From Pelagomonas calceolata (taxonomy: Eukaryota): a DNA stretch of 64,000 nucleotides. Both the position numbers and the translations under genes were made by a program. The number at the start of each line of letters is the position of its first letter. Positions within the stretch are counted from its first letter, which is position 1. A model generated the notes under the pieces. It ran no database searches and was not told where the DNA came from. It saw only the letters and a list, made by a program, of their open reading frames with translations. Positions 1 through 64,000 of the stretch are shown in pieces. The DNA is taken from positions 1,612,001-1,676,000 of the forward strand of contig CAKKNE010000005.1 of the NCBI GenBank assembly GCA_918797485.1. The letters run 5' to 3'.

Positions 1-498
1 ATTACATCGTTTTGTCCCGATAGGACAAAATGGTGTAATGGAGTCTCCAATATGAACACACACACACATATATAGTCATACGTCATAAATATAATTTTAA
101 AATTCTAAAATCTACATTTTGTAAGGTCGGGGCGGGATATATCGGTGACGTCATAATTTTGTTGATGTGTCTTTTTTACACCACTTTTTTGATTAGAGGT
201 TGATTGTCCTATGGGCTTATTCGACCTCTAAAATCGAAAAAGTGGTGTAAACTTGAACTTTGAAAAAGCACTCCGAGTCAACTTATATCATCATCCGCCC
301 CCGTACATGCGGGTATTTGTATACTCAGGCTAGTATTAAGAAGTAGGGAGGATACCTCCGGTGCAGTGCTGTCTAATTGCCTAAGGTGCAGTTCTGCAAC
401 GGTGTTGTGAGAACGCAGTAATAAGTACTACACTTGGGCCTTCGAGTTACCGCAATGGTTTGGTCATGGGCACCGGCTATTTTTTCTTCGGATTTTGC

Positions 499-3400
499 TT
501 AATTATAGTGTCCTTTCACTTGTGTCTGAGTTACAAGCCCAAGGGTCTCAATGCCAATCAAGGCGATATTGCATGTACTGCAAATATGGCCTTTCATGCT
601 GTTTGTGTAAGCAGATTTACAAAATGAGCATCGTTCAAGCTGACTTCCTCGATAAATAGGGTCAAGGCTTTTACAATTGATCTCAAAAGGATTTCGTTCA
701 TCATAATTTAGTTTGAACTCATTTCGTGCCTTTTGCTCGCTCTTCTGAAGGACGGTTTGCGCTTTGTTGTGTAATTCTGACTTTCCCTGCGCCGAAGAGT
801 CTGGTAAATCTAGCAGGCGACGCGCAAATGAAGCTGCCGTGATAAAGTTCCCTCCTTTGTATGCTTGCGTCATGGCCAAATTAAGAGCAAGAGCAAGATG
901 AGCCGGCTGTAGATTGCAGTGCGTGAAATAGGCGGATAATTCCATTTGACGGACACCTTTTTCGATCGCATTTGCATGTTTTAGACGGATTGCAGTGACA
1001 TATTCGCGGGTTATGTCCATCAGCTCTCTCACCTAAGCCCCCAATTTTAGATAACAAGGCACACGAGTGGAAAGGAAAATAGGATAGAGGAGAAACCAAC
1101 CTCATTGGCATGTGATCGGCTTTCTGCTATTATCAGAGGGATACACCGCAATATGTGATGAAATCTTTCCCGGGAAGCTTGAAAATTGCCTTTCTGGAAC
1201 AGCCGGTAAGAATTCCTAAGAGCATCGATAAGTTGGGGCATTGAATTTGCTATTCTAGGGAAGCAGCTACCATTAGCCACGTTGCCATCACGCAGCATTG
1301 CAATCTCATATGATGAGGAAAGGGGCAAGCCAGGTACCGAGGATTTAGAGGCAGCGTGTAAGACCAAAAAACGTCCCCGCATAGGACTAAAATTGACGAT
1401 TGATATTTGGCGATTGAGATAATTCATTGATGATCCAAAAGACCCAGCCGCAGCATGATCAGCAGCATGTGCAGAGTTCTTGCACCAACGGTTTTCGGGA
1501 CAAATTCCAGCAACCGGGACTATATATGTGCGAGATACTGCCTCATCAGCCTTGAGATTCGAGCTTGCATAATCGGCATCCTCGTTGGCCGCATCATCGA
1601 TGTCTAGATCCTCGCCCCATCCCCCTACCTCGTCGGATTCCGCCTCCACTTCATCAACTTTGACGTCGTGTTCGTCTAGATCAAGGTCGGCATCCCATCC
1701 CGGGGAACTGGTGTGATCGACGGTGTCACCGTGTTCGCTTTGGTCCTCATATGAGTTCCGAAAAGTGCTCTTTGGTATCGCGAGTAGAGGCCAATTATCA
1801 GATCGTAAGATTGGAGTCGGAGGTTGCATGAGCTGTGAATTGTGCAATACAATTGGGATGGGGCGGCCCGCACTTTGCAGCAGCTCTTTGATTCGCCCTG
1901 CTTCCTCCAGCATCCCATGCGAGACTGCTGTCACATAAGCAAGAGGAGACTGACCGGCCTCTTCTAGAACTCGAGTGCGTTCAGTGGCATCACCAAGAAA
2001 TAATGAGTTGTGAAAGCGCCCCATAATATCCCTACGCATCTCTGCAATCTTCAACATCTTACGAAGTTTCTCGATATTCCCAGTCAATAGATAGAGAAAA
2101 GAAAGCCGCTCGAAATTCTTCGTACGTTGATATGACATTTCAACCACCTGGTGATTGCCTTGTCGAAGTGCCTCCATACCAAGCCTGTGCCAACATTCAT
2201 CATCACCAATTTCGTAGGCAGTGTTCATGGCCACTTCAATATTTCCACAAGCAAGTGCTAATTTGAATCGAGTTTGTAGGTCATCAACAAAGTGCAAGGC
2301 CACTTCAGGATATCCTTTCTCTTGTAAGTAAACAATTATTGCTTTGCCGCACAGCTTTGAGTGCTTGATCATGTTCATAACCTCCAGATAGTTTTTATCC
2401 TCCAGGGCTAGCTTAAATACGGCCTCTGTATTATCAACAGAAAGAATGCAATGCTTCAACTCGCGATCAAGACAGTAGAGCTGTTTCTGATTTGCTCTGG
2501 TTATGTATACTGGGACATCAAGAGTGCGAATAATACCCGTATCCCCATTGGTCAGACAATACTTCACATGGTTTAAGGTGGTATAGAGAAAAATACGATC
2601 GTCCCAACCTCCACCTTTAACGCGAACAGTTTCAGTCACACTACACAGCTGCTCGAGATCTCGAGAGGCAATAGTTATACCTTGATTTAAGATCATTAGA
2701 CTATGTGAGACTAAAGACAACGCACCGTGTTTGCTCAGAAGTGCAACCCTGCTACAGTCTTGATTCCATATTACGTACTTGATTCGTGCAACTTGCAATT
2801 CAGCAAGAACCCTTCTCGATTGAGGCTCAAAGAGCATGACTCTGTCATCTGTACGCAAAAGAAGGCGGCCTGATGTTCCAGCAAAGAACATGCAATCAGT
2901 GCTGGGATTAGGGGGAGGGACACTTTTTCTTTTCTCATTGTTGAGATCCTTGATGATTATCTATGACAGATTTGGTCAAAGGAAGGAGACGGGCTAATTA
3001 ACAGTACCTGGCGATTTTTGTCTAGGACCGCAAAACGATTTCGAGAGAGGAAGACAGCAGATAAAGCCAATCCCCGCTTGAGGTCTGAACTTTCGCCCTG
3101 TTGATTTGAGGCAATTACATCACCAGGGAAAACAAGCAACTCGAAAGACCCACCATCCTGTTGAGAGAAAAGTATTACGTTGTGTTCGGATGGGTTCATT
3201 GTATTATACTCCAAAGATCGAGGTCCAGCGCATACTCCATTCTGCGCGTGGCCGGTGGGGCGACGTAATGATAGCATTGGCAAGTCTCGGCGGGTGCTAT
3301 ATTCATGAATACGGAGATATCGATCTTTCACATAGAACAGAGTATCCAGATGGGAGCCAAATGCCGGCCTTTCACGTTCAAGTTTGAAAACAATCATCCC

Positions 3401-4396
3401 AGAATCATGTCCAGCAGCTAACAAGTTTTGCACGGGGTGAGCTGCAAGAATCCAGAATCGATCATTTTCACGTCGAAATGTTTGCACACCAAGTCGTTTT
3501 GATATGTCCCAGACTCGGATAGAACGATCTTCAGAGTTTGACACTATTAACTCATGCTTTGGATGGAAAACAACACAAGACACGTTATTACTATGGCCGC
3601 GCATGGTATCAACTTCCCAGGCCTTTGTCTCATTCATGCGCCATAGCTTTACTTGTCTATCATCTGCACCACTAATCACCAACGGTAGTGTTGGGTGAAA
3701 CGATGCCCAGTTCACGCCACGATCATGCCCTTCCAAGACATACTTGACAATGGCGTCATTTCCTCCAAAAAGGTCGGCATTGACTCTCGAGACAACGCTA
3801 CTTGCACTAGTGCTACTGGCGCCAAGTTCTTGTAATGATGATGAGGTGATATGGGTTCCGATTGCCACGGGGGGGCCCCGTACAGTTTTCTTTCTGAGAC
3901 CAGTAATGTCCCAGACCCGGACAGTCTGATCTAAGGATGCCGAGACGATAAGGTCATCTTGGGGATGAAATGAAGCACACATCACATAATGGTTGTGTCC
4001 CGTCAGTACGCTGACACATGATCGACTTTGCCAGTTCCAGATACGGATTGTTTGATCGTCACTCGCAGAAACTACCCAGGGATATTCGCCATGGAAATTG
4101 ACAGTGCGAATATAATCCAAATGCCCAAGCAAAGTGAACAGACATCTTCTGAGTTTATAATCCCAGACTTTGATGCGATAATCATCACCACCACTGACTA
4201 ATAATGGCTGAACATGGTGAAAATCGATGCCTCTGACAGGGCCGTCGTGCTCATCGAATCTCTCGAGCAGCGTACCCATACGATAGTCCCAGAGTTGTAT
4301 TACTCCATTGTGCAAACTTGTCAAGATCCATGGTCTCTGAGGATGAAATGCTAGTCCTTTCACTCGATTACTTTTGGATTCAAATTTGGTCAACAT
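499..4396 (-). CDS. COPA: Coatomer subunit alpha (alpha-COP); 4 exons: 4396-3008, 2960-2726, 2680-1101, 1032-499
   Basis: N-terminus [19 protein letters not shown] with WD40 repeats, Coatomer_WDAD region ([14 protein letters not shown]) and C-terminal [19 protein letters not shown] introns read at 2961-3007 (47 nt), 2681-2725 (45 nt, in-frame) and 1033-1100 (68 nt) join three ORFs. Confidence 0.97.
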
Positions 4397-5179
4397 CTCT
4401 CGACCGCGCTGGATTATTACTTATATAATTCAATAATTAGATTGCCCCAATAGATACCCGGGGCTCTACCAGCTTGTAGTACCGTGGTAGCTTCTACCTA
4501 CTACTGCGGAACTTTAAACCTGAATCGACTGGCGACCGGCCGTGAAAACCTAGGGCCGACTTCTTTTGCCGCGGCAAGGTCCCGAACCCGGGCCGAATCG
4601 GAGGTGAATTTCCGAATTTCCGCTCCACACGATTTTCGGCGTACGCGGGCGGTATCGCCTCACACTTGGATCTCGGCGCGAGGTGCGTATTTACTAGGCG
4701 GAAAAGCGGAGTATACCCGAGTGCGTACCTGCTTCGAGTATACGATGCGGCTTGAGTGCGCGGCCATTACCAACGACAAGCGAGTTTGTGCACGGTTTTG
4801 CGTCCCGAACACGACCTGGAAACTCACCACGAACGAGTTTGGGCGAGGACGCTACGTTGAGGCCACAGCAACCCCGGGCCAGAGACCACCAGTCGATATA
4901 TAGCTTGGACTCGGCGGCACGGGAGGGGGCGTGGCGGCTTGCGCCGAGAGTCGGCTGCTATCCGCAGCATTATGAGGATACGGGTGCTCTCCGCAGCTGC
5001 GACGTCATTGGTGCCCATACACGTTCTGCTGGTGGTAATTCATTGGGCCGCCATGCCGGTCACGGTCATTTTGGCCCGGATGCGAGGCCTTTTTTAGATA
5101 TGAGCATATTCACCTTAGGCTGTCTGCCTTGCCGTGACGGCTGGTGGGCTTCGGTACCTTAAGGGCCGTAGGGTACCGT

Positions 5180-5950
5180 AGATACTAGAGAGAGAAACCT
5201 ACTAGCCCTTCCTACCCTGGATTAACTTGAACCCTAGATATGTATCTCCCACTCAGGCTCTCTAAATTTGAGTCTATACATCGGGTGTACATTGCACTAC
5301 GGTGAAATACAATTTGCTATAAAACACTCTCGCAGTTAGGTTGGCCCAGCCTTTGCCAGTGGCTGGTGAGCTAGGACCTTGCTACCTTACATAACGCTGC
5401 GACATAGTCACTTGCAGGCTCTTGCTAGGTTATTGCGAAGAATATACCCCCTAGTACTACACTAGGCCCCTCTTACTCTCCTACTTAGTCCCACCTTGAC
5501 GTCACGGTAATGACTCGGAAGGTTTACACCACATTCATTCTTAGTGCTAGTATTACACGGGGAGTCACTTACGCCAAACTCACTCACACCGTTGCAGAGG
5601 GTCGGTATACCACCGCACCCTACTTATTTCCTGCAGGTTGTGTTGGACTCCCGATCAAGCACTCCGATATTCCGCAAGCATTTATTCAGTCCGATCTTGA
5701 TTCAAAGCAGTCATATATGGACTTACCCAAAGGTATAAGTTTACGGGACACCGACGGCAAGCTTCACACATCCGGCCCGGGCGGCGAGTCTCCCTCAGGC
5801 TCTCTCTAAATTTGAGTCTATACATCGGGTGTACATTGCACTACGGTGTAAACACAATTTGCTATAAAACACTCTCGCAGTTAGGTTGGCCCAGCCTTTG
5901 GCTGGTGAGCTAGGACCTTGCTACCTTACATAACGCTGCGACATACCTAC
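5180..5950 (+). mobile_element. Decayed Ty1/copia retrotransposon remnants with a ~155-bp direct repeat (5252-5406 / 5793-5945) and an RT fragment
   Basis: ORF 5510-5809 contains HSDIPQAFIQSDLD..YMDLPKG, resembling the copia RVT_2 motif (D..AFL..DL...YM..P.G). The repeat contains TCGCA followed by a degraded PBS-like GTTAGGTTGGCCCAG, similar to the LTR end at 61660. Confidence 0.7.
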
Positions 5951-6125
5951 GGTACTCTTGCTAGATACCGTAGGTACCATGGTACCTTAGAAGGATAAAA
6001 ACGCGTTTTTTGTTGTTTTATCGCGTGGATGGGTAAATCTTCACTTCACTCGGTAAGCTTTGATTGACTATGATACTTTTATGCCCCGATCGTGCCAGAT
6101 ATAGAACCGCTGCGAAGCAAGCAAA

Positions 6126-9100
6126 ATGGATTACAAAAAGGGCGGCGGACTAATTCTCTCCTCAGAGCGAGCGCAGCTGGTTGACGGGCTGTGGACAATT
6201 CAAAAGTACGGTGATTTCGCTCCTGGGGATAAGCGACTGGCGCGTGTGTTTGTGACTGGCCGAGTAGAGATGCGACAACTTGGAGGACTGTTTAAATTGT
6301 CTTTTGATGGCTTGGCCGTGCAGCGACTGGCAGATAATCCTTCGCAAAGCCCTCTTAAAGCAAAGGTGTTCCTTACTCGCAAAAAGGCAAAAAAGCGCAT
6401 GGCAGATTTGGAAGAAACGGGTTACAGTGTGCCCATCTCACGTGATTTAGATAAGAATGGATTCGTTTGCAGTGGAGACGCGACCCTGGGCACATTTGAC
6501 TTGACACTGAGGAACGCACCCGACAACCCGCTACTTTATCGCGGGCTATGCATAGCAAAATCTGCCCAGGACACGCCATTGACAGAAGAACCTGCGGTCT
6601 ATGGATTCGTGAGGTTCGTTGACGACCGACCGCAGATAACTACAACGGAGAATGTCCTCGGTCTCCATGAGAACGAGGATTTGATGGGGAACAAGACTAT
6701 TATGCATGATGGCACAGACTCAAAATACAAGCCAATCCAGGCATACACGCGCACCGCACTGCGCAGGGTTATTGGACGTACATTTCATTGATTGTTACCA
6801 GAGGCGGAACTGGCTGTCCCCTAGGCGCGAAAGGCATGGAAGGCGCTCGAGCTTGCTGAAGAGCAGCAAATCGGCTTCGATGAGTTTAAACGCGCCCTAG
6901 ATCTCCTTGATTTGACACTTCTAGAAACACGTGCCATGCGACTTTTCGAGGCTGTTGACCTAAATCAATCAGATCAAGTTGGCATTACAGAATTTGAGAT
7001 TGCTCTCATGATAAATGATAGTAAGTTTGCAGTATAATATAATAACCTCACCAGTCGCGATTGGCCCATCCTATCTAACCTTGTAGGTACCCCAGATTTG
7101 GGTCTTACTCCAAATGATGCCTTTCGTATGTTCGACCTTGATCAGACTGGTAAAATAACAAAAACGGCGTTCCGGAGGGTTATTGGCGCTCTGGGGGCGG
7201 GTGAAAAACTACCCGGGAAGACGGTGGACAGTGAGGAACGAAAGATGGCAATTGAGGCATTTTTTGACAAACTCGACCTGGATAGAAGTGGCGAAATCAG
7301 TTATACCACCTTTAGAAGCGCCTGGGTTAAGCTGGTAGATGTAAACACAGAGTTAACGAAGAGACAAAGAAAACCGTATTCAGTCCCAAGGGCTCTTCAA
7401 ATGTTCCAGTTTTTGGCTGACATACTAAATCGTGCAGCTCTTCTCACACTATCTGCAGCAGAGGAGGCGGAGGAGAAGCAAAGTTTCCAACGCGCGAGAC
7501 AACATATAGATCGGTTGAGAGTTGAAGCACGAACACGCCGAGATGAACACCGTCGAGCAAGACAAGCGGAAAGGGAGCGTGTGTCACTGGTAGCAGCCAA
7601 AGACATTGCTCTCCGAAACAAGGATAGAGCCGCGCGGCTGGTACAGGAGCAAAAGTTGAGAAATAAGCAGCGCGCTGAAGAGAAATTGATGAAAAATCGC
7701 CTGGAAGCAGAGCAGGCTGCAGCGAAGCGCCGAGAGAATGCAGCTTTAAAAGCAGAGAGGAAAAAGCGAGAAGCCGATCGTGTTGCTATGATCAGGATGG
7801 CCGGTGCAGATCGCCTGGACTGTTCCCGGCGAAGCTATCGCTTGCTACCAGCAGAGCTGTACATAGGACGTGATGCGCAAGAGGGACTAGCGGACCTAGT
7901 AATGTTAGACCTCGGAGAAAATTGTCTCGAGACCTTACCAACAGGATTCCTTATGTGGTTCGCGTCGCTGAGATATCTCAGGCTTACTGCGAATCGCCTG
8001 GAGTATCTCCCAAAAGACGAATTGGGGGATATGGGTCAACTAGAGGTGTTGAAAGTTAATAGCAACAACCTCATTGATATTCCAGATTCTATTGGTGAGC
8101 TAAGTATGCTCAGAGAGTTGCGTGTGAGTAATAATAACCTCAGGAAGTTGCCAAGTTCAATTCAGCGCGTTGTGTCTATTGAATGCCTCAGTGCATCTTC
8201 CAATCAACTTGTTTCACTGCCAGACATGTCTGGGTTGCAATTCATGAGAGATCTCTGTTTGCGGGGAAACAAGTTATTTGAACTACCAGAATCTCTACCC
8301 GACATGGTGTCACTAACAAGGCTGGACGTGCACAATAATCAGATTCATAAATTACCTCAAAACATCGGAGATTTAAAAAAATTGCGTGTACTTAACATTA
8401 GCGTGAATCGAGTAACAACATTCCCAGATAGTGCATCTGGCTTGAGTGGCTGCGAATCTTTTCTCCTGCAGGAGAATGAAATTCTTCATCTTGGCGTTTG
8501 GGCTGGCGGGTGGAAATGTGCCTCGTTTTTAGACATAAGGGGCAATAAGATTGAGCATGTTGACCGGTCTGTGGGTTCTCTTCGAAATCTAACCGTCATA
8601 CGACTGGACAAAAATAAGATAGAGCAACTTTCTCCACAAATAGGCCTCGCCCAGTCACTAGAAGTCTTGCATGTTTCTGACAACATTCTAAAGAAACTCC
8701 CCGTGGAACTTGGCGCCCTGGCGCTACTGCACACTTTAAAACTATGTAAAAATTTCATTTTTAAGCACCTGCCAGAGCAATTGGGACTGCTCAGGTCGGT
8801 GACTGACTTGGATATCTCTCAGAACATGATTGAATCACTCCCAGACACAATTGGTGGACTTGGAGAGCTTGTAAAACTCAACTTGGCGCACAATCGGCTG
8901 TCAACTGTACCGGAAACTATCATCCATTGCACGCGATTGCATGAACTCTATCTATCTTCAAATCACATTAAGCGATTGCCGATGCACCTTGGAAAGTGCA
9001 CTCCTCTCCGCATTCTTGATCTTCAGTCTAATCTCATCGTGGAAATACCTGCAAACCTTGCATGCCTGATAAATCTTCGATCTCTACACCTTGGGAAAAA

Positions 9101-9860
9101 TCTTTTGCGGGCCCTGCCTCTTGATATCGTCTATCTCTGTGAGACTGTAGAGAAGCTTAGTTTGGATAGAAATCCATTCACTGACCTCCCACCTAGGTGG
9201 GCCAAATTTTCAGGATGCTCTGCGCACGAGCGGAGCCTTTGGCCTTCAGGTTACAACAACGAGCTAGCAATTTCCTGGGTAAAGGACCATTCTGCCTTCT
9301 ACCAAGCTGCCTCTGAAGAATGGCAGATGACCGGTCCCATGCATGTATCCAGCCGATCAAATCTTGCCGCTTACGAGGCTGCCGTCAAGAAGCGCTGCGG
9401 CCCTGCTTGGCAGCCTCACCTGCTTTCTCTTGTGCGTGCATACTATTTCAAGGCAAGGCATACTGGCAGCTGTCCGAAGTTTAATTATTTAACAGCAATA
9501 GAATCAAAACTTCGTTCCAGAGCCAGAAAAAGAATAGCTTCAATCCGCAATAGCCGCCATCGGGTGGCACTTGACGCTGCAGCAGAATACAATACTGTTT
9601 TAACAGAACTATACCATAGCAATCTTCTGTGTCGCTTGGGTAAGATTCAAGACCTTGGGCAAATCAGAAGAAAAAATAGAGTCTCGCGCCACTCGAAACC
9701 GAGAAAAACTATTGCTCTCAAACAGGCTCATATACTCAAGGCCGATCAGGATCGTGAAGGACGGATTGAATTGGAAGAACTCCACGCGCACCTTTGGAGC
9801 TCCTTTGGGTGTCCAGCTGATGGTGAGCATTTTTTTCCTTCAGGATTTACACGATGTTGA
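6126..9860 (+). CDS. EF-hand + coiled-coil + leucine-rich-repeat protein; introns ~6768-6824 and 7021-7086
   Basis: EF-hand loops (DLNQSDQVGITEF, DLDQTGKIT, DLDRSGEISY), an E/R/K-rich coiled coil and a long run of LxxLxLxxNxL repeats. GT-AG introns join ORF 6126-6791, a middle exon and ORF 7098-9860 in frame. Confidence 0.8.
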
Positions 9861-10225
9861 CATTAATGCAAGTCAGTCAGGGACATGTACAAGACAACCC
9901 GTCTCCGGAGTTCAACCAAGCAAATGGATCTAGCGCCCCTGGCGCCTGCTGTAGTCTGCTGGCGAGGAGGACGCAAAACGAGATTGACCGTGTTGTCTCT
10001 GAAATTAGATGTGAGCTCGAAGACGCGCCTATAAAGAACTTTTGGAGCTCGCTGGCCAGGTTCGAGCCGATTCAGCGAGACTGGGTCCGCTAGAGTTTGC
10101 ATGGGTCCGGCGCGCCTGCGAGCCGTACCTTTGATCCCTTTTTTATTCTATTCCTAAGTATTGCGCACGCGCATTTAAAAAGGGGAATAGGACACCTCGC
10201 GAGCGGCAGCCCGGGCCCTAGCGGC

Positions 10226-12841
10226 CTAGAGCCGGTCGAGGAAGCGGTCGAGAGGCGGGATTTCGGGGTTGAGTCCCTTGCGCTTGCGGACCTGCCCGAT
10301 GACAGCGCCGGGCTTGGACGCAAGGTCTGTTGGGTCGCCCTGGAGTACAGCCCAGTGTGAGAATACCATCTGGGGGAATGCCTTGCCACCCGTGGCCGCG
10401 CGAACGTCGGCGTTGAAGCCGAAGGACTCCATTACCGGCATGTGTGCCTTCATTTGGACCATCGGCGTGCCCGGGCGCTGCTCTTCGGAGAACACAACGC
10501 CGCGGCGGCGAGTGAGCACACCGTAGCAACCGCCCATGGCGTCCTGTGGCACGGAGATATCGACAAGGAAGAGAGGCTCCTGGAGAACAGGCTGCGCCAG
10601 CAGCAGCGACGCGAACATTACGCGACGCGCGGTTGGCATGATCTGACCCATGCCGCGATGTATCGCGTCGGCATGAAGCGTTACGTCAAGGAGCTTGAAC
10701 GAAACACCACGCATCTGCTCGTCACAGAGGACAGAAGACTTGGACGCCCACTGGAAGCCGGCAACAACAGACTCGCGGATCTCACCAAGATAGTTTACAC
10801 CCTTAGTCTGGTCGTACAGGAGATTGGCACCGGACCCGTCAGGCCCAAAGCCCCAGATCTTGCGTGCATCGCCAACATCCCAGCCGTATTCGTCGGCCAT
10901 GAGGCGCGCACGGAGTTTGGGGTCGTCCTTGGCCGAGACCTTGCCTGCCTCGATGGCATCAGAAAGCTCGTCGGAGAGGGGTGCCGCCTCCATGTAGAGC
11001 CGATTATGTTTGTTCGGCGACTTGGAAAGGCACGTCTGCGAAGAGTTTGCGGAGCACGACTCGCGGTATGAGACGACAGGATCGGAGACCTTGACGTCCG
11101 TTCCCATGAAATCCTCTTGGAGGTCCTTGAGGCAGATCTCGAGGTGAAGCTCACCAGTTGCCGCTATGATATGTTCGCCCGACTCCTCCGTGTAGCAGAG
11201 GACCATGGGGTCTGACTTGGCGAGGCGCTTGAGGCCCTCGACGAGCTTGGGGAGGTCTTGCGCCTTCTTCGGTTCGACTGCGCAGCGAACAACAGGCGAG
11301 ACGCTGAACTTCATCGTTTTGATGCAGTGCGCTTCATCATGTGTCGATATCGTACCGCTCTTGAGGAGGTACTGGTCGACACCTACGAGGCCGCACGTGT
11401 TGCCGGCAGGTATGTCCTGGACCTGCTCCTGAAAGCGTCCCATCATAATGAGCGTACGTTGGATATTCTTCACCCAGAGATCACTCTTCTTGCCAGGGAT
11501 GTAGTTGGGGCCCATGATGCGAACCTTCTGACCTGTCGCGATCTTCCCCGAAAACACGCGGCCAAAGGCAAAGAACCGACCCCGATCAGAGGACGGGACC
11601 ATCTTGGAGATGTACATCATGAGCGGTGCACCATCGGACGTGTCACAAGTACGGATTGCGTTGGCACATGCGTCGTCGAGCGGCCCATCGTACAGGTTCT
11701 CGACGCGATAGCGCTGCGCCGCTGCTGGCGAGGGTAGCTTGACGACAATCATCTCGAGGATTGCGTCACCGACAGGTAACCATTTCTGCATGACGCATTT
11801 CAAGAGGGGCTTGCCTACCAGCTCGTCCTCCTCTTTTTTGAGAGTCACGCCAACAGCCTTGAGGAGCTTCTGGATCTTCAGCTTCTTGTCCTCCATGATC
11901 GCCGCGAACATCTTGCAGATAGGAGTCATGATGAACTGGCAAAATGCGCGCTCGAGTTGGCCATCACGATCTGACTTGACCCATTTCTTACCCTTGGCAT
12001 CAAAGTAATTGTCGCCCCAGAGCTTCTGCATCATCTTGTCGTATCCTATGCCAAACTTCTCGGAATACATGCGCGCGAACTTGCACAACGTGAACCCCCA
12101 CTGGTGGAGGCCCGAACCAAATGACACAGTACCCTTCTCGGGATACACCTGACAGTCGCCGAGCAACTCATCGTTGTACGTTGCGATGATGACGTTGACC
12201 GACTCCACCGACCGCTGAAAACACTGGTACATATCCTCAGGTGAGAGCTGGAGCTCAAGCAGGGCGCGGTCAACCTTGTTAACGTGGAGCACAGGGCGAA
12301 CACGCTCGCCGATCGCTTGGCGAAGGACGGTCTCAGTCTGGACACAGACACCTTCGATGGTGTCGACGACCACCAAAGCGCCATCAGTAATACGTAGTGC
12401 AGCAGTCACTTCAGATGAAAAGTCGACGTGGCCCGGCGAGTCAATCAGGTTGATGAGGTAGCTGTTCTCAGTGATGGTCGGCCCGTCGTCAGATGACGCA
12501 AGCGCGAACGCCGCGGCGGCAGTCTCGTCACCCCCCGTGACTGCGAGCGCTCGGCCCTCAGCCTTGGCTACCTCGGCCTTCTCGCCATCGGACATCTTGT
12601 ATTCGAAGAACATGGAAATGCCTGTCGACTTGATCGTGATGCCGCGTTCTGCTTCGTCCGCTCGCGTGTCGGTGTAGCGCATCTCGCCGGCGTGCTTCTT
12701 CGCAATGATGCCCGCCTTGGCGACGAGCGAGTCTGTCAGCGTCGACTTCCCGTGGTCGACGTGCGCAATCACACTCATGCTCCGGATGTTGTACTTGAGG
12801 TCCATCAGTGACCGCAGCTGCTCGGTGGTGAAATTCACCAT
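10226..12841 (-). CDS. EEF2: Eukaryotic translation elongation factor 2
   Basis: MVNFT start, [34 protein letters not shown], diphthamide loop LHADAIHRG. Intronless with strongly GC-rich codon usage. Confidence 0.99.
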
Positions 12842-14401
12842 GGTGCCTGCTTCTCACGGCCGCGGCCGAGCCGAGCGAGACGTCGCCGAGTGCCGCCGCT
12901 AGTACGAGTACGTACGGTCGGTTTTTAAACGCCAAGAGCGCTCGGGACTCGAGGACTCTTAACATTATGTCTTCATGGGGGTACTTTCACCGCGCGCAGG
13001 GTTGCGCGTAGGATATAGTGCGTAGGGTCGTGAGCCTGGACTATGGGTAGCTAGGTAGGAATTAGCCGTACGTTGGTTTTGATGTCCAGCAGCGGGCTTG
13101 GCGGTGCTGCCGGCAATGCCCGCAGCGGGGCTTTGGCGTGGGGGCTCCTTATGATGTCGTCGGGTCCCATGCAAAGCGGGCTGCCATATAATTGCGATGC
13201 TGCTTTGATTCTAATTAGCTGCCGACGGCGCCTAAATTCACGCTAAAAACCGTGCATTCGGAAAATGCGCTATCGGCGCGAGGGAGAGCCGCTTGGAGCC
13301 CTGGGCGCCCAGGAAAGGGACTCCTAGGAAAATTTAGATAAATCTCGGAGACACCCAATTTTTACGCCCCCTTCGCTTCGCCTTCCAGGGCTCCTCAGCG
13401 TCAATTATCGTTCGCAGGGATGGATCGTACCCTCGACTGCCCTCGCGTAACGTGGATTTGGTCGTTTCGGTGCTTTTAGTCGACTGCGAGACGGTCCCGC
13501 CCGAGACACATAATACGACACTATCTCCAGCTTCTCGAGCACTTGAACGCAGCCGCAGTGTCCGGGGGTACCCCACGCATGTGCCCGACCCGTTTCCTTG
13601 TTTCGCGCATCCCGTCTAGCGGAATGCCGCGGGTCGCGCCGCGGTGCGGTACGCCGCAAGTAATCTCAGCGACAGAATTGGTGCAGATAGCTGCCCCTGC
13701 GCGTTTCACTGGCTTCAGTACCTTCTCGGGCAGCCTCGGCTCAGCAAAAATTTTTCGCGGGGAGCCTCGCGCGGCCCGCTAAGGGCGCGTCGAAGGGCCG
13801 AACTTCAGGCCAGCTTTTCTCGGCCGCTACAGGCGCACACTTGTCACGGCCAACGCGGCTGGGTAGCCCTGGCTGTGGGCTTTCCAGCGCACCAGCCCGT
13901 GACAAGTGTGCACCCGATGGGGCTGAGCACTGGACGTGTTTTGCCCTCAGTGGCGCCAGCTCTAGCCTCAGTGCCTGGACTCGTACGCAATTTTTTTTAC
14001 GAGTGCTCGGCAAGTGTTGGCGCAGCCCCGTAGCGTTAATGGGACGGGGCACACAGGCCCTGGTGAGTTTTGCGTCACTAGCCTCTAGTGTGTTTTGCTC
14101 CGCTCGCCGAAATGCTGTCCTTCGCCGAGCGCTCGCATAGTAGCGCTCGCCCCTTTACCCCTTTCCGATGACCACCTTTCCAAAACCATCGGGGCCGATG
14201 CTACCGCGAAACTGTCGCCGACACTAGGACCATTTCACCCGCTCTCACCCGTGACTCTCGCCGATGCCGTCCAAACGCGGTTTACAAAAACATAGCTTGG
14301 GGGTACCGAGCCGTAGGCCCGTCTACGCCCGTAGCCGGGGCTGCCGCCCGCACCGGGTGTCGAATAGAAAACCCGCTACTGTGAAAAGCTGGCTGGTTGA
14401 G

Positions 14402-15363
14402 ATGGCGTCCCCGATGACGAAAAAAGTTTTGTTGATGGGTCGCTCCGGCTCTGGTAAAACATCTATGAGATCAATCATTTTCGCTGACTATATGGCCCGT
14501 GATACAATGCGACTATCCCCAACTATTGATGTAGAATACTCTCACGTGCGTTTTCTGGGAAATCTTCATCTCCATCTGTGGGATTGTGGAGGACAGGTTT
14601 GCACATGTGCTGACAGCATTGGACTGAAATTATCCCGTAGGACGATTTTTACCGCAACTACCTTGAACACATGAGGGATCATATATTTCGATCAGTGGAA
14701 CTTTTGATATATGTATTTGACATAGAAAGTGAAGAGCAAGGAAGCGATTTTTCTCAATTCGCTGATGTAATTGAGGCTGTGGAACAGCATTCACCTGATG
14801 CCCGGGTCTATGTCCTGGTACACAAAATGGATCTTGTGAAAGAGGATGTTCGGAAAGCCGTCTTCTCTGAGAAAGAGGCCAGCATCCTCTCCCAAGCAAG
14901 TGATCACTTGCGTATTCAGTGCTTTCGTACATCTATATGGGATGAGACCTTATACAGAGCCTGGTCTCATATCGTGTACTCTCTAGTTCCTAATACAGCC
15001 CTTCTAGAATCACACTTGAACGAATACTGCACAATCTGTGGTGCAGACGAAGTTGTGTTGTTCGAAAGTACCACCTTTCTTGTGATCGCACACGCAACCT
15101 GCATTCCACATAGTGATACACATCGTTTCGAAAAAATTTCCAACATCATCAAACAGTTCAAGCTGAGTTGTCGGAAGGTTCAGGCGCATTTCGAGGGAAT
15201 GTTGGTTCAACATCATCAGTTGATTGCCCTTTTTGAGAATCTAACGAGAAGCACAGCAATCATGTTTATTTCCTCTGATCCTGATTTGATGCACACTGCA
15301 TTGATTTCTTCTAATGTGGCACAGTTTCGGGCGCAACTAAAGATCTGTGGTCTAATTGGATAA
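14402..15363 (+). CDS. RRAGA: Rag A/B (Gtr1) GTPase; intron 14597-14640
   Basis: [65 protein letters not shown] 44-nt GT-AG intron restores the frame. Confidence 0.96.
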
Positions 15364-16290: not shown

Positions 16291-16395
16291 CTGCCCCGGG
16301 CCCCGTCCCGGGCCTCTTTGTATGTTGAGGATGGGTGTCCGCCCCCAGTGTCTGGTAATTCTTTCGAATACTACAAGAGCGAAATGGGCCCATCC

Positions 16396-48337: not shown

Positions 48338-48391
48338 CCAGGGTCTGTGAAAAAGAGCCTTGTCGAATTTGACAGGAAGAATGCGGACTGA

Positions 48392-48445
48392 GAATCGTCA
48401 ATCGTCAATCGTCCAATCGTCCAACAACAACAACAACAACAACAA
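48392..48445 (+). repeat. Short tandem repeats: (AATCGTC)-like x4 followed by (CAA)8
   Basis: Read directly from the sequence. Confidence 0.9.
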
Positions 48446-49346
48446 ATCAATAATTAAGGAATATCCTAAAGAAAAAGGACAACAACAAATCCACCTGGCT
48501 GCTCAGGCTCAGGCTGAATCAGCCTGAGTGCAAGGTCCGCATCTGCCCCCCCCCCCCACCCCCCTTCAAGGCAAATGGACAGATAATTAGATAGTACGCT
48601 GCACGACTGTCGCACGGACGTGGAAGGGGGGGGGATTCGACTCGCCGGAGTAAGTCACCGTGAGGGAAGTCGTGAGGGTCTCAATCGAAGTAGCGTGATC
48701 CACACAACCTCACGATGAGCGGCTGTGGGGAGATGCTACTAAATTTCCTCGGATGAAACCCAGATTAGAGCTCTAAAGACGGAAGCACAGTCCGTCTTCG
48801 CATTACCCGGAAGCAGCTGGCCGCCTGGGTTATTCGCCATGGTCGTTGGTGGGTTTAGGGCCGCCTGTCGCAGTGCTTCCATTCAGACCGCCGGGAGCCT
48901 AACTTCGCGGGGCCGTCTCATTCGCGTGCAGTATCGGTCCAACTGATCTGACGGCCGCTTTTGATTTGACGGAATAGCCCGGAGGCCGATTTACAGCCGG
49001 CCCAGGCTTTCTAAGCGCAGCCCGCCCCGTGAACCAGGGTGCCGTATGAGACCCCAAGGTGCTGCGGAATGCAGGCCTTTTGCATGAACCATCCGACTCG
49101 GAGGGGCAAATCAGCTAGCTAGCTAGCTCAGGCTAGCAAGCTCAGGCTAGTTTGATGGTAAAGGCTATTCAAGTTATTAAACGAGCATTTGCTTAATCAC
49201 TACGACCGTAGATTTAATTAAGGACTCGGAAATGACGAAGAAGATCGATTCGAGGACAGCCACGCCGCGATTATTTGTCAAATTGCCATTCAAGGGGTCT
49301 GCTGAGAATTACTTTCAGTGTAGTAGCCTCCTCTCCTCTCCTCTCC

Positions 49347-51112
49347 TCAACGAACAAGAACTAGGTCGTCTATCTTTAGAATCATGCAGATGCATTCAGT
49401 GGCAAGGTGGATGGCGCAAGTGTTAACTAGGAGAGGCTGAACTACATTGAGGGTGTACATATTCCCGATGCAGCCATGCTTCACATTGATACCTGCATCA
49501 GCTTCAGCAACACGATGTCGCTTACGGAGCTGTGTGACTATGTGGATTGGATTAAGCCCGGCGTTTTCAGCTAGTGTGTAAGGTACAACTTCGAGCGCAT
49601 CGGCGAACGCACTAAGGCAAAAACCAACGGAACCTGGCTTTGTTTTGGCTATATCGCTCAGCTTTAGGCAAGCTTCCACTTCTGCTGAGCCGCCACCTGA
49701 GATGAGGTATCGCTTCTTCACGAGCGAACGAACAACACAGAGAGCGTCGTGAAGCGAGCGGTCAGCCTCCTCCAGAACAAGCTTATTGGAACCACGAACA
49801 AGGATGGTAACTGAAGCATTCTTGCGTGGCACACCTGTGACCTTGACGACTTTCTGTGATGACCCAGGCATTGAGATCTCATGGACAAGCTGAGCTGTTC
49901 CAAGTTTAGCTGGATCTAGCGAATCTACCTGTGTCTTCCTATCTTCCCACACCGCTTCGCGTGACTTCGTCACACGCAATTTGGACACAGTAATTTACAT
50001 GGGCAACAGGAAGAAGGTCGAGAGTTTCAGAAATATGCGATATATCGTTGCGCTCAATATCAGCAACAACCATAATGCCCATCCTATGGTGGGATTTTGG
50101 GTAAAAAGAAGTTTCTCGGAGTTGGACGCGGTGGCAGGGTGACTTAGCGAGAAAATGAAGGGATAAATCGTTGTATGCGTCACGCAGAATGGACTTTTGA
50201 ATGAGTAGGACGGTGATTCCGCATTTCTTTATCTTCTTGCACAAGCCAAGGACGTGCTTGCGCTCCTCGCGAAGAAGCCGATCCATGGCCGCATAGTCGG
50301 AGACCACGACATTGTTTTCCATGTCGGTCTTGGGAGCTGAAAGGCAGAACTGGATGAGACCAACCTTAGCATTTTCTACACGTGTGGGACCTCCAGCCGC
50401 CTTCTTGGCACCTTGTGCAAAAACAATTCCGTCGACCAGCTCCGTGTCATCGACTGTCCCTCCGACTTGCTTGACAATTTTAATTGCTTCCAAGTCAACT
50501 GTTGTTGCAAAAGTTGTGTCAATGACACTCAGGACTGCGTCTACAGCTAGCGGCGCAAGGGTCTCCGAGTTCTGGGAGATAACCTTAGACGAGAGGCACG
50601 TCCTTACCGCATCAACAAGCCTATCCCGCTCACTGAGTGTTATCGGCTGTGCGCAGGACTGTAGAATTGAATCACATGTGTTGGCTGCTAGCACAAATGC
50701 CTCTGCAATCGAGGTTGGATGCAACCCCTTGACAAGTAGCTGGTGGCAGGCATCGAGCAATGATCCAGCAATCACGCAGACCGAAGTAGTTCCATCTCCG
50801 GCCTCAATGTCTTGCGACTTGCTTAACTCAACGAGCATTTTGGCCTGAAGTAAACCAGTCACCGTGATTAATTACAACTAGTCTTACTGTTGGATGCGCT
50901 ACGTTCATTTGCGTCAGGATCGTGGCCCCGTCGTTAGTTATTAGCACCTCGCCATCAGACTTTTGGATCATTTTGTCCATTCCCCGCGGCCCAAGCGACG
51001 TGCGGATCGCATCCGCGACTCCTTTGGCTGCCATAATGTTGGATATTCGTACATCTTTTTCTTTTTTTAATCCACGCTGCGACTCCCCGTCAAAACGAAC
51101 TGGAGCGCGCAT
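49347..51112 (-). CDS. CCT4: T-complex protein 1 subunit delta; three GT-AG introns
   Basis: [74 protein letters not shown]. Confidence 0.97.
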
Positions 51113-51665
51113 TTCCCTGCGCCAAAATTCGGCCGATCTCTCAGGGGTCACTAGTGTATATAGCGCTGGCTCCGGTTCAAGACCTGGATTCACTGGCAGG
51201 ACTCGGGCCGCCCCGGGGTAGAATATCATCATCCGATGATTCAAGTTACAGAAGGCCCGGCGGGCCAGCTAGGGCCCCTGCCGGGTACGACCGACCAAAG
51301 CCAGGGATTCTGGGCAGAGCCACGACCAAGTGTCTTCCAGTAACGTGCGCTACTTGCCTTCAACAGATAATTTCTGAGTCTTGTGTGGCATATGCGGTCA
51401 ATGACATCGGAGGGGTGCGATTTGATTTTCCGCAGCACCTTGGCTATTGGTAGGCTGCCCGTGGTCTCCCGGGTTTCTTATATGTTCCCTGGCTCGCGGA
51501 GGGGTGGCTAAGAGGGCCGGCGCCGGGGGCCCGGCCGGTTCCCTGGGAAGCGTGCTCGAAGCGGCGGCGAGGACTTCCCTCGTTCCGCCGATGCTCGGGC
51601 TACGAGCTCGAGGCCGCGCAGCCAACTCTAGTCTAATAGATTAGCCCGCCCGGGCTCACACTCGC

Positions 51666-52809
51666 ATGGCTTCGGCCGTGCATTTCAGCGAAACGTTTGA
51701 TAGAGACAACGGGTCTTGCAGAAAGCGGCTGAAGCTCTTGGAGTCAGATCAATGTCTCTTGGATACGCTGGAGCGAAACCTAGAAGTGCAATTTGTTTCT
51801 AATAGTGCGTCCCTCGTTATTCTCGCCTCTTCCACTGGTTGCTGTTGCTGTCAGGCAACACTTCAGATACAGTCCTATGTACACCGACTGAAACCTTCAA
51901 GGTGACCAAGGTTGAGTCATCCAACTCAACCCTACTCGCAAGCGGATGCCTCATCGGGGGCACAAGTGGAATCATTCGATCTTCAGTTAGATTCCATTGG
52001 GAAATATGCCGTACCACTCCACGCGTTGACTTCAGGCTGAGCCTCCCGGTATATAGTGATGAAAACACGTCTGTGGGTGTAGCACCAAGCTTGACGCAAG
52101 TTCAATCTTATAGTCAGGCGTCGTGTGCTGAGCTTGAACAGACCCTTCAGACGAGCACGATCCTTCTCAATGAGACGGGAGGGCATTTTTATCTAAAAGA
52201 AACAACACTGCATCAATGTCTAGACCAGATCTTGATGGTGATTTCACTTAAAGGCTGGCCACCATCGGCGATTCCACTCAAAGCTTGTGCTGAAGATGCT
52301 GCAAAACATGGTTCAGACATTATCTTAACCACACATTGCCTCAAACACTTTGCCCTTTTTTTGTCTCCAAGTGGAAAAGTGAACCTGGATGTTCGACGTG
52401 TAGCTCGTACACTCACGAGATCTCTATTTGTTACCAAAGAGATCTACGAATCCACGAGACACCTATTGAACGACCTTCATGACTGTCTCCCGGTGAGTTT
52501 TCGCTAACATATACCTGGCTGCATGCTTGCACCTACAGGCTCAAATTGAGCCCGCAATGTCCTGGCTCGATGGAATAATTACTGTATCTGTGAATGGGGA
52601 AGTTGCACTCGCTACTGACAAAGGTCGCACCTGATCTATTTATGAATTACTTGTATGACCGAAACACCCCCGCTATGCAATCGGTGCATAGGGCTACCTC
52701 GGAGTCCCCTTGCTTCGTGCGCCACAGGAGATGGAGGAGGGGGCTAGCGCATGCGCCTCCAGGGATCCAAGGGTCTATCTCTGCCCTGGGCTCTCAATCA
52801 TGGTTGTAA
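51666..52809 (+). CDS. DCC1: Sister chromatid cohesion protein DCC1-like; intron 51805-51854; 3' exons approximate
   Basis: LKLLE.., TVLCTPTETFKVTKVESSNSTLL and QASCAELEQTL resemble DCC1 conserved blocks. Confidence 0.65.
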
Positions 52810-60974: not shown

Positions 60975-61417
60975 GCCGGACACCGGAAATTCCCTAGCAG
61001 CCCTATATAGATATGGAACGATGGGAAATAATTAGTGGATAATTAGAGGCCGATTTATCCCGTCCGTTGGAGCGATTGGGTTTCCGGCGGGTTCAAGTTT
61101 TTTCTCGGACCATCGCACCGCGTCGCAGCTGATTTTTCAGCGTGAGGCTGCCCGCACGGTACCAAAATGCGCACAGCCCATTATTTTAGCATACGGAAGC
61201 TGCGCCTCAGCAAAAATTTCCCGCCATTTGGTAGGTGTGTGGCTGTACGCGCATTGCGCCAAAACCTGCCAACGTCGACTATTGCGCTCCACCCCCCTAT
61301 AAATTTCGAAGTCTCCAAGGAGTCTTAAGCGTCGCAGGCTAATTCATTCTAATTAGAGCTAAGGAAAGGTAAGGAAGAATGTTACTCCAAAGAACTTTGA
61401 ATTAACCGGCGTCCGGC
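60975..61417 (+). mobile_element. ~440-bp MITE-like element (copy 2) with imperfect TIR (A)GCCGGACRCCGG
   Basis: Left end agccggacaccggaaattc; reverse complement of right end agccggacgccggttaattc. The left end also occurs at 42580-42600 and 55019-55060. Confidence 0.8.
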
Positions 61418-62344: not shown

Positions 62345-62968
62345 ATGGAGCTTAACGCTAGCCTGCCTGCACACCAGGGGCCACGGGCGCTCGCTCGGGC
62401 TCGAGCAGCGCATATACTCTCGCAGAAGTTCGCGAACAGAGACCGCGTGAAGGCCAAATTGCTCGAGGACAAGGAAATATCTCGCTCCCAAGCTAGGGCT
62501 GGACGCCAGGCAACACAACGGCGCTGGAAACTTAAGACACGACATTCGCCCTTTCTTGTCGATTTGGTGGCAGAGAATGAACGTCTTGACGAAGAGAATA
62601 AGGTACGGCTTGCTGCTGAAGCGCATCAACTGAGACTTGTAGAAAAGCAAAGAGTGACTCTCAAGCATAAGGTTCTAGTGCGTGCACTGCGAGAAGAGTC
62701 TGATCTCGATGCGCTACGCCGCGAAAAGCGCGCAATCGTTGATGAAGAGCGTCGCTTGAAGGCTCTTCTCGACCTTGAGAAAACGCAAACTCGCAGTAGG
62801 CTTGACATGCGAGCTGCCCAGCGGGCAGAACGACAGCGTTGTACAGCAACGAACGACCTACGCCGTCGGAGCAACATTAATCGGCTCCAAAAACAGCAAC
62901 TTTTGAACCTTGCATTGCTTCGTGCAACCACCGATGATGCTCCTGATAAATTCGATTTTACTTTCTAG
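62345..62968 (+). CDS. Unknown coiled-coil protein, 207 aa
   Basis: Single ATG-initiated ORF with coherent helical R/E/L-rich composition (SPFLVDLVAENERLDEENKVR). It lacks the intergenic footprint octamers that crowd the flank. Confidence 0.75.
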   Translation: MELNASLPAHQGPRALARARAAHILSQKFANRDRVKAKLLEDKEISRSQARAGRQATQRRWKLKTRHSPFLVDLVAENERLDEENKVRLAAEAHQLRLVEKQRVTLKHKVLVRALREESDLDALRREKRAIVDEERRLKALLDLEKTQTRSRLDMRAAQRAERQRCTATNDLRRRSNINRLQKQQLLNLALLRATTDDAPDKFDFTF

Positions 62969-64000
62969 ACGGCACCCTGATACTCGTCGGAATTGAATCA
63001 AACCACACTCGTCTGGGCGGATTCTCCACAGGGGGAATTTGCTACTGTCAAATAGAGAGGGACTTTTTTGTCCCTTAAGTTACATGGTACTAGTAGCATG
63101 CCAGAGTGACGAAAATATGAGCCATGACCGTCATTTTCGACTTGGATATGAAGTTGAGACTGCTATTGCCAGCACGAAGCCTAGGGTGCAATTTACGCAC
63201 TTGCGTTCTTTTTACGTGAGAAAGCGGCCCACCGTAAATTACGCCGTGTTTTAATCGTAATTTATGCGTGCTCTTGTTTAGTAAAACCCGCAGATATATA
63301 GCTAGAGTCTCTAAAATGGACTTGTTGTAGCCACGCAGATTGCCAAAAGCAGCCTGAGCACGAGCGTGATCTGCGTTCCGTGTAACTATGCTGCGCGCCC
63401 CACGCACGCGGTATAAGACGCCAGTACTACTCTCGGGCTGCCGGGCACCGCCTTCAGCGCCGAGTCGTCGACGAGGTAGCGACCTCAGGCTCCGAGTCGG
63501 TACTTTGTCCGAGTCTAGCGGCCCGGGGCCACCACTGGCAGGGGACTGGCAACCACGGGCCGGAGGCCCTCCGAAACATCAAGTTACACCAGAATCCACT
63601 TTACCCTCCAGTATTACCCCACTTACTTCCGCACTTACACTACCTAGGTAGTACTTTCTTACACATTTAAAATTAAGCGGGCATGAGTTTGCTCGTGCCC
63701 CAGACCTTCTGGGATCGCCTTTCCCTCTTACATGATTCCCTGGCAACCGGCGAATGTTGGAATGACGTTGACTCAATCGCAGTTCCAATTGACCCCCCCT
63801 CCGAGGACGCTGCATTCACAAAGTCCTCGGCATTCTTCATTCATCTTTTCGGTCTAGAACTGCACGACTCCTTAGCAATGCTTTGCAAAGGCGCACTTCA
63901 CGTCCTGGCTACGGACGAGAAGTGTGCAATGCTTAAGGCCCTACAGGAAGAAGGCCAATCAGCAGGGCTTAAGTTCCAACTTCACAGGTTTGACTTACCA

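What the first reader, a model, noticed from the sequence alone, without database searches (positions are those of the whole stretch)
250..63584. Window-wide rule-based 6-bp insertion: XY -> XY-C-revcomp(XY)-G-XY for all 16 dinucleotides
Seen: intergenic DNA is full of octamers that look unrelated but obey one rule. Examples: AACTTGAA (250), TCCGAGTC (272), GCCGCGGC (4568), CCCGGGCC (4587), GTCACGGT (5059, 5501), CTCAGGCT (5252), TGCCAGTG (5354), GACTCGGA (5512), GGCCCGGG (5774), CACTGGCA (16191), TACTAGTA (16493), ATCATGAT (26335), TTCAAGTT (26442), ACCGTGAC (26466), AGCCTGAG (37782), CGCCGGCG (~56796). With uniform composition the 16-octamer set is expected once per 4,096 positions, yet it reaches 10+ per 200-300 bp in spacers and appears near background in CDS. 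Inference: each is the excision scar of a cut-and-paste element with a 2-bp TSD and C...G termini. Each flank forms a hairpin retaining one element base, is opened 2 nt down, and the overhangs join through the 2-nt revcomp(XY) microhomology. Established: flank hairpins are known for hAT, CACTA/CMC and RAG chemistry, and CMC elements have C...G ends with 2-3-bp TSDs. I do not know of a description of such a stereotyped, sequence-independent footprint saturating a genome.
Basis: partly seen in the sequence, partly recalled or inferred. Interest (0 to 1): 0.95.

Follow-up and report, generated by a model that had tools for sequence, protein, structure and literature searches.

The report
Rule-written six-base scars in Pelagomonas
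Non-coding DNA in the putative centromere region of the marine alga Pelagomonas calceolata is studded with six-base insertions that duplicate any two-base site around a C, an inverted copy of the site and a G, and that differ between wild alleles; they are likely scars left by a cut-and-paste jumping gene that has not yet been found.

Summary
The 16 octamers XY-C-rc(XY)-G-XY occur 178 times against 16-18 expected: 6.1/kb between genes, 0.45/kb in genes. They are real insertions. Against four metagenome alleles, 6 bp is the commonest clean indel length (11 of 34), and 8 of 14 six-base indels fit the rule exactly. Paralogous repeat copies show the same. Gene order places the window on P. calceolata chromosome 5, in the low-GC putative centromere. 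A sister species and a distant relative carry the octamers too. New here: nested scars, almost no imperfect junctions, and a second, TA-only 9-base scar. The inverted copy points to hairpin-sealed ends opened 2 nt down and joined by 2-nt microhomology (inferred). Best cause: excision of an element with a 2-bp target duplication and C...G ends (0.62). No such element or transposase was found. Main rival: host repair of Topo VI/Spo11 breaks with an added C (0.2). 'Genome-wide' is untested; only this one region was seen. Not found in print in 10 searches.

The parts
250..63540 (.). Field of 178 rule octamers XY-C-rc(XY)-G-XY, 161 of them intergenic
5354..5361 (.). TG scar; the paralogous copy near 5899 has the bare TG
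61092..61099 (.). TT scar; the paralogous copy near 55835 has the bare TT
16174..16198 (.). CC and CA scars, absent from the inverted paralog near 35200-35250
20168..20231 (.). Cluster; allele L002 has one more GT unit and two extra adjacent scars (GA, GG) here
20622..20629 (.). GA scar, empty in allele L001
20806..20813 (.). TT scar, empty in allele L001
22610..22617 (.). In-frame 6-base insertion in the ATG2-like gene, one mismatch from the GC rule; absent in L002-L004
26420..26433 (.). Nested scar: an AA scar at the centre of a TT scar (other central nests at 46850, 46878, 61943, 62142)
28562..28569 (.). TC scar, empty in L002 and L004
28683..28690 (.). TT scar, empty in L002 and L004
61626..61633 (.). 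TA scar; a contig lacking 6 bases here occurs in 4 of 4 metagenomes (its depth suggests it may be a paralogous copy)
5944..5976 (.). Second class, TA-only 9-base scar (TA-CCG-TA-GG-TA or its reverse complement), two copies; the L002 paralog has the opposite orientation at the first site
26148..26225 (.). Cluster of TA-class scars, partly nested; the first is empty in L002
58190..58209 (.). Tandem pair of TA-class scars
502..52504 (.). Marker genes COPA, RagA, eIF2-alpha, CH-domain sperm protein and Dcc1, in the order of Pca_5p09340, 09370, 09460, 09480, 09500

Best explanation
The octamers are six-base insertions written at any dinucleotide, and they are likely excision scars of a low-copy cut-and-paste transposon predicted to make a 2-bp target duplication and to end in C...G. 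Shown: XY becomes XY-C-rc(XY)-G-XY, repeatedly, recently and in open intergenic DNA. Inferred steps: (1) insertion duplicates XY; (2) at excision each end is nicked one base inside the element, so C stays on the flank; (3) that 3'-OH attacks the other strand at the boundary and seals the flank as a hairpin; (4) a host SNM1/Artemis-type nuclease opens each hairpin 2 nt past the tip; (5) the two tails pair through rc(XY)/XY, two 3-nt gaps are filled and ligated. In a haploid cell without a sister template each hop would leave one scar while copy number stays low, so scars can far outnumber elements. A gain of 6 keeps reading frames, which would make such an element cheap to carry.
For: Exact rule in 8 of 14 six-base allele indels, 7 of them not tandem (chance about 4e-19), plus two double events and at least five paralog pairs. 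The inverted copy of the site needs fold-back of the same strand, which hAT, Transib/RAG and MULE transposases make on flanking DNA (PMC5499845 passages); hAT scars use P-nucleotides and microhomology (PMC5873905 passages). CMCT-clade elements mostly end CA..TG and make 2-5 bp duplications (PMC12730594 passages), and an active RAG-like transposon exists in the pelagophyte Aureococcus (PMC9435367 passages). A second fixed scar only at TA (8 copies, polymorphic) looks like the work of a TA-targeting element, and the gene table lists one Tc1-like transposase. An SNM1A-1C-like gene and two Ku-domain genes are annotated. The species is reported as haploid (bioRxiv 2024.10.30.620910, section 13). 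Target bias is weak (pyrimidine at -7, p=0.002).
Against: No element found: C-starting inverted repeats with a 2-bp duplication number 11 against 10 in shuffles. No polymorphic site inspected was filled. 0 of 93 intergenic or allele-specific ORFs hit a transposase family. No CACTA, Plavaka, hAT, MULE, piggyBac, Harbinger, KDZ or RAG1 term in 14,639 rows against 16,667 genes, though repeats were masked before annotation. The high-copy repeats I could delimit start TGCGA, not C. A nick inside the element combined with a flank hairpin is not a chemistry I found described. Known hairpin scars are heterogeneous (28 types in 128 clones), whereas imperfect junction classes here are at background (ratios 0.7-1.3). 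The same scar in a relative at 37% protein identity needs a long-lived or horizontally shared family. The predicted +3 product at palindromic sites was not separable from background.
Confidence: 0.62

Rival explanations
1. No element is involved. A host type IIB topoisomerase (Topo VI or Spo11) cuts with a 2-nt 5' overhang; fill-in duplicates XY, a dCMP transferase (Rev1-like) adds one C to each end, the ends are sealed as hairpins, opened 2 nt down and joined. The scar would be a host mutational signature of abortive topoisomerase breaks.
For: SPO11 makes 2-nt 5' overhangs and can reseal nicks (PMC11922745 passages; its reference list cites the same overhang for Topo VI). The gene table lists a SPO11/Topo VI-A gene, Topo VI-B, two TDP2, three TDP1, a Rev1-like polymerase and an SNM1-like nuclease, with no LIG4 or XRCC4 term. 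It explains the missing element, the sharing across genera, scars in divergent, tandem and convergent gaps alike, and re-use of the scar centre (7 of 12 internal second hits, p=0.004).
Against: Needs near-perfect untemplated C addition and hairpin sealing, for which I found no precedent (0 papers). It does not explain the TA-only 9-base scar. The base before the cut shows no significant bias (p=0.12). Topo VI and Rev1 exist in plants without such a signature being known to me (recalled). The annotated SPO11 was not expressed in exponential growth (supplement of PMC9481584).
Confidence: 0.2
2. A transposon supplies the ends but the host makes the hairpin. An element with a 2-bp duplication leaves a 1-nt 3' overhang (Tc1/mariner-like double hydrolysis), and an unusual host end-joining route seals any short 3' overhang into a hairpin, reopens it and joins by microhomology.
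For: The TA class fits the same grammar, XY-left remnant-rc(XY)-right remnant-XY, with CCG and GG remnants, and one symmetric TA-CC-TA-GG-TA copy lies at 63641. The plain 5-base TA scar is at background, 3 vs 2.8. Tc1/mariner enzymes make no hairpin, and LIG4/XRCC4 were not found in the readable table.
Against: TA is its own reverse complement, so the middle TA could be a direct templated copy. The 3-versus-2 asymmetry is unexplained. No element of either class was found, and the table is incomplete.
Confidence: 0.12
3. The octamers are selected binding sites, slippage products or an assembly artefact.
For: They sit in promoter and terminator gaps; 8 tandem pairs could arise by slippage.
Against: Sixteen unrelated words share only a rule. 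They appear as single-step insertions into bare dinucleotides, where slippage cannot supply C-rc(XY)-G. They recur in independent metagenome assemblies and other species.
Confidence: 0.02

Closest known systems
hAT (Ac/Ds) excision footprints with P-nucleotides (PMC5873905, passages)
   Same: Inverted copy of flank DNA from an opened hairpin, one unpaired tip base, joining by microhomology.
   Different: There the tip base is the complement of the flank base, so it varies, the duplication is usually 8 bp, and products are diverse (28 types in 128 clones). Here the tip is always C, the duplication is 2 bp and one product dominates.
CMCT clade: EnSpm/CACTA, Mirage, Chapaev, Transib, Plavaka, ESTA, RAG-like (PMC12730594, PMC9435367, passages)
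   Same: C...G ends in most members, 2-5 bp duplications, flank hairpins shown for Transib/RAG; an active RAG-like element in Aureococcus.
   Different: No such element or transposase was found here; the Aureococcus element makes 5-bp duplications and its terminal motif is not in the window. A retained element base in the hairpin is not described in what I read.
Tc1/mariner footprints (TA plus 2-3 element bases plus TA; scar form recalled, cut chemistry from PMC5499845)
   Same: Fixed element remnants between duplicated target bases; best match for the TA-only class.
   Different: TA only and no inverted copy; the main class here uses all 16 dinucleotides and contains rc(XY).
Spo11/Topo VI breaks (PMC11922745, passages)
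   Same: 2-nt stagger at nearly any sequence, weak symmetric bias.
   Different: No added C, hairpin or 6-base scar described in what I read.
Pelagophyte introners (PMC9860276 passages; supplement of PMC9481584)
   Same: Non-autonomous DNA transposons with inverted repeats, 956 putative copies in this species.
   Different: The Aureococcus sp. family described has an 8-bp duplication; no link to these scars was tested.

Membership tests
Transposon excision footprint (hairpin type) | Target duplication flanking the scar | tested here: met
   XY on both sides; empty alleles hold one XY
Transposon excision footprint (hairpin type) | Inverted copy of flank DNA (P-nucleotides) | tested here: met
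   rc(XY) with C/G gives 178; the other spacer and non-inverted controls are far lower
Transposon excision footprint (hairpin type) | A resident element with matching ends and duplication length | tested here: inconclusive
   None above chance in 64 kb and five loci; a low-copy element would not be expected in so little DNA
Transposon excision footprint (hairpin type) | Same site seen empty, filled and scarred | tested here: inconclusive
   Empty and scarred seen, filled not seen
Transposon excision footprint (hairpin type) | Heterogeneous junction products | tested here: not met
   Imperfect classes at 0.7-1.3 times expectation
CMC/CMCT clade | Ends CA..TG | tested here: inconclusive
   The scar implies only the first base C; no element to read
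CMC/CMCT clade | 2-5 bp target duplication | tested here: met
   2 bp; 1-, 3- and 4-bp versions of the rule show no comparable excess
CMC/CMCT clade | DDE transposase with C(2)C and H(3-4)H motifs | tested here: inconclusive
   No hit in window or loci or by name in the cut gene table; genome not held
hAT | About 8-bp duplication and a variable tip base from the flank | tested here: not met
   2-bp duplication; C precedes the site in only 74 of 234 half-sites
Tc1/mariner (main class) | TA-only target | tested here: not met
   TA is 5 of 178
Tc1/mariner (TA class) | TA-only target with fixed remnants | tested here: met
   8 copies, all at TA; polymorphic
Spo11/Topo VI repair scar | Enzyme genes present | tested here: met
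   Pca_2p25160 and Pca_3p25470 in the gene table
Spo11/Topo VI repair scar | Dependence of new scars on the enzyme | not testable with these tools
   Needs knockout or inhibitor lines

The most novel reading that the evidence does not exclude
Pelagophytes have an element-free, host-encoded mutational process: Topo VI/Spo11 breaks, or any short-overhang break, are capped with a C, sealed into hairpins and rejoined into one fixed, frame-preserving six-base insertion. It would be a new DNA repair route, probably standing in for ligase IV joining, that has written about 4% of the intergenic DNA of this region and marks every past break site.
Probability: 0.25. Interest if true: 0.93.

Novelty: new variant of a known kind. 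Interest (0 to 1): 0.74.

Why it matters
In one of the most abundant oceanic picoalgae, a single deterministic, sequence-templated insertion is the commonest clean indel between wild alleles in this region and makes up about 4% of its intergenic DNA (1,098 of 26,525 bp). It implies either a transposase chemistry I did not find described (nick inside the element plus flank hairpin, leaving frame-neutral scars) or a new host repair route. Either can be tested in a cultured, haploid strain with a finished genome. The scars are easy to recognise and arise by one step, so they are also ready markers for population history, break-site mapping and dating of centromere DNA, and they will mislead motif searches in these promoters.

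Tried and rejected
Fungal origin (Neolecta guess): dropped. Whole genome: none held; the contigs behind my loci are not held either, so chromosome arms were not examined. Element hunt: inverted-repeat scans at chance. The motif CCGGAAATTCCC at 42589, 55027 and 60983 has no partner end and no viral match. High-copy repeats at 42603 and 61660 start TGCGA, with no match for the latter in viral or prokaryote contigs. The 86-bp inverted repeat at 6485-6570 lies in an ORF and is treated as chance. No Rfam family in the window. No EF2 relative in viral contigs. The Aureococcus RAG-like terminal motif is absent (1 match, 1.2 expected). +3 product at palindromic sites: observed/expected 1.38 with C/G centres against 1.41 with A/T centres, so no support; two CG +3 polymorphisms (26621, 28906) fit it but also fit slippage. 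No 2-residue scar indel among 9 same-species protein variants of one gene. The global alignment was noisy and replaced. Collapsing scars before alignment cut gaps from 16 to 10 for L001 but only 50 to 46 for L002, because mutated scars collapse on one side only. Huff et al. 2016 was not available. Ten literature searches returned no listing that describes this rule.
Full report
Observation. The 16 octamers XY-C-rc(XY)-G-XY occur 178 times in 64 kb and fill most of the top of the octamer list. Markov models of order 1-3 expect 16-18. The 15 other spacer pairs around rc(XY) give 14-47. Sixteen of 17 quoted coordinates are exact and one is off by a base. With refined gene limits, 161 lie in 26,525 intergenic bases and 17 in 37,475 genic bases. 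Collapsing scars iteratively removes 178 intergenic events and 1,098 bases, about 4% of that DNA, TA class included. One-mismatch relics number 602 against 356 expected on both strands, so roughly 120 older scars lie beneath. Versions of the rule with 1-, 3- or 4-base sites show no comparable excess.

Where it is. EF2's best named full-length hits are pelagophytes at 84-85%. COPA, RagA, eIF2-alpha, a CH-domain sperm protein and Dcc1 run in the order of Pca_5p09340, 09370, 09460, 09480 and 09500 in the Pelagomonas calceolata gene table (PMC9481584, supplement 4). The window is 50% GC against 63% for the genome, and that paper names Dcc1 among the genes of the low-GC, putative centromeric regions. 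I read passages of its main text and its supplementary notes in full as far as they hold text; these do not mention the octamers. Eleven of 17 pages of that file are pictures, one file is unreadable and the gene table is cut at 14,639 rows, so unseen supplements could bear on this. A second genome paper reports the same regions as poorly conserved and the species as haploid (bioRxiv 2024.10.30.620910, passages and section 13; its supplements were not seen).

They are insertions. Paralogous repeats within the window differ by rule insertions at 5354, 61092, 16174, 16191 and 16505, and by a one-mismatch copy near 42880. Four of the ten metagenome loci fetched are alleles at 95-99% identity. Their alignments hold 68 distinct gaps, of which 34 have clean flanks, and among these 6 bp is the commonest length (11). 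Of all 14 six-base gaps, 8 fit the rule exactly (one of them a tandem unit), a ninth does once a neighbouring substitution is allowed for (20502), one fits with one mismatch inside the ATG2-like gene, three look like slippage and one is unexplained. Seven exact non-tandem fits in 14 have a chance of about 4e-19. Two 12-base gaps are pairs of adjacent scars. Extra scars occur on either side, so both lineages gain them. Four further marine metagenomes each hold a contig lacking 6 bases at 61624, and contigs with one 6-base gap and no other change in 62035-62214. A sister species at 85% protein identity has 37 octamers in 9.6 kb against 2.4 expected. A relative at 37% identity has 10 in 5.6 kb outside long ORFs against 1.4 expected. 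Two short, mostly coding loci (L006, L007) show only 2 and 3, and L009 and L010, which resemble L008, show 5 and 3.

Anatomy that constrains the mechanism. (a) The middle is the reverse complement of the site, so one strand must have been joined to its own partner; a hairpin is the simplest way (inference). (b) C and G are constant and do not come from the flank: C precedes the site in only 74 of 234 half-sites. (c) The product is uniform; truncated or one-sided junction classes are at 0.7-1.3 times expectation. (d) Second hits fall in register: 5 at the scar centre, 8 tandem and 2 at the four off-register positions in the window; 2, 0 and 3 in the sister species (centre 7 of 12, p=0.004; small numbers, and tandems may be slippage). 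(e) Target bias is weak: pyrimidine at -7, little G at -2, CG and GC under-used. (f) Scars occur in divergent, tandem and convergent gaps, and are nearly absent from two repeat-filled gaps (0 in 1,977 bp, 1 in 1,625 bp).

A second scar. TA becomes TA-CCG-TA-GG-TA or its reverse complement, a gain of 9. There are 8 copies in the window, in three clusters. One is empty in allele L002, and L002 and L004 carry three in a row at a TA that is bare in the window. Paralogous copies show opposite orientations at one site. The sister species and the distant relative have none. It looks like the scar of a TA-targeting element, and the gene table lists one Tc1-like transposase. It fits the same grammar as the main class, but TA is self-complementary, so this is suggestive only. 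Both gains, 6 and 9, are multiples of three.

How it most likely works. Insertion of an element duplicates XY. At excision a nick one base inside each end leaves C on the flank, that 3'-OH closes the flank into a hairpin, a host nuclease opens it two bases past the tip, the tails pair through rc(XY)/XY, and two 3-base gaps are filled. Only the end product is shown; every step is inferred. Flank hairpins are established for hAT, Transib/RAG and MULE, with opening left to host enzymes (PMC5499845, passages). CMCT-clade elements mostly end CA..TG and duplicate 2-5 bp (PMC12730594, passages). An active RAG-like element with 5-bp duplications is known in Aureococcus (PMC9435367, passages). Against this, I found no element and no transposase, no filled site, and no relevant family name in the readable gene table. 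That absence weighs little: an element in tens of copies per 32 Mb would rarely fall in 64 kb, and repeats were masked before annotation. I give this reading 0.62.

Rivals. A host enzyme with a 2-base stagger gives the same duplication without an element. SPO11 cuts this way (PMC11922745, passages), and the table lists Topo VI-A/SPO11, Topo VI-B, TDP1, TDP2, a Rev1-like dCMP transferase, an SNM1-like nuclease and Ku, but no ligase IV or XRCC4 term. This explains the missing element and the sharing across genera, but it needs an unprecedented exact C addition and does not explain the TA class (0.2). A hybrid, with transposon-made overhangs and host-made hairpins, would cover both classes (0.12). 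A +3 product predicted at palindromic sites by any hairpin model could not be separated from background.

Novelty. Hairpin-derived excision scars are a known kind, but they are heterogeneous and their tip base varies (PMC5873905, passages). Ten searches of the held library (listings and abstract starts, passages for the papers cited) showed no description of this rule; subscription journals are mostly missing from that library. Unchecked notes from this scan report dense scar fields in other genomes, mostly TA-only or hAT-type, so dense scarring alone is not unique. None of the notes shown describes a 16-dinucleotide rule with constant C/G and an inverted site. I file it as a new variant of a known kind, with a 0.25 chance that the host writes the scar or its hairpin step by a new repair route. 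The claim that it saturates the genome remains untested, since only this centromeric region and its orthologs were seen.

Noticed in passing
window 5944-5976, 26148-26225, 58190-58209, 63641: Second, TA-only scar class (gain of 9; one symmetric gain-of-8 copy), polymorphic and iterated; GGTACC stays enriched after collapse (42 vs 13), unexplained.
   Followed up: partly
window 61660-61840 and 42603-42940, 45761-46025: High-copy repeats (roughly 50-100 times single-copy depth at their peaks) with diverse flanks and ends TGCGA / TCGCA; perhaps solo LTRs or a TG...CA element; no Rfam or Pfam hit.
   Followed up: partly
window 42589, 55027, 60983 (variant at 55725): Shared motif CCGGAAATTCCC, followed in three of the four places by a TATATA box, at the start of multi-copy repeats; may be a promoter-like or terminal motif.
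   Followed up: partly
window 13043-13972: About 930 bp present in the window and absent from L002, flanked by a 9-bp direct repeat; MULE-like duplication or a microhomology deletion.
   Followed up: no
window 26226-27106: 881-bp stretch with 13-bp inverted ends and TA on both sides, MITE-like; its interior is replaced in L002 and L004.
   Followed up: partly
window 175-251, 13819-13927, 20952-21048, 29618-29670, 54651-54711: Short imperfect palindromes of 50-110 bp in intergenic DNA.
   Followed up: no
L002 12526-12867 (-): Allele-specific insertion with a weak RING finger hit (zf-C3HC4_3, E=2e-4) in a spacer unrelated to the window's.
   Followed up: no
window 12900-14400, 16300-16760, 20680-21770, 26180-27100, 29280-30700: Intergenic spacers are wholly replaced between alleles whose genes are 98-99% identical, showing very fast turnover of centromere-region spacers.
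   Followed up: partly
Gene table of PMC9481584: No ligase IV or XRCC4 term in the readable rows although Ku genes are present; two orphan RNase H-like genes (Pca_1p27840, Pca_2p26960) are candidate divergent transposases.
   Followed up: no
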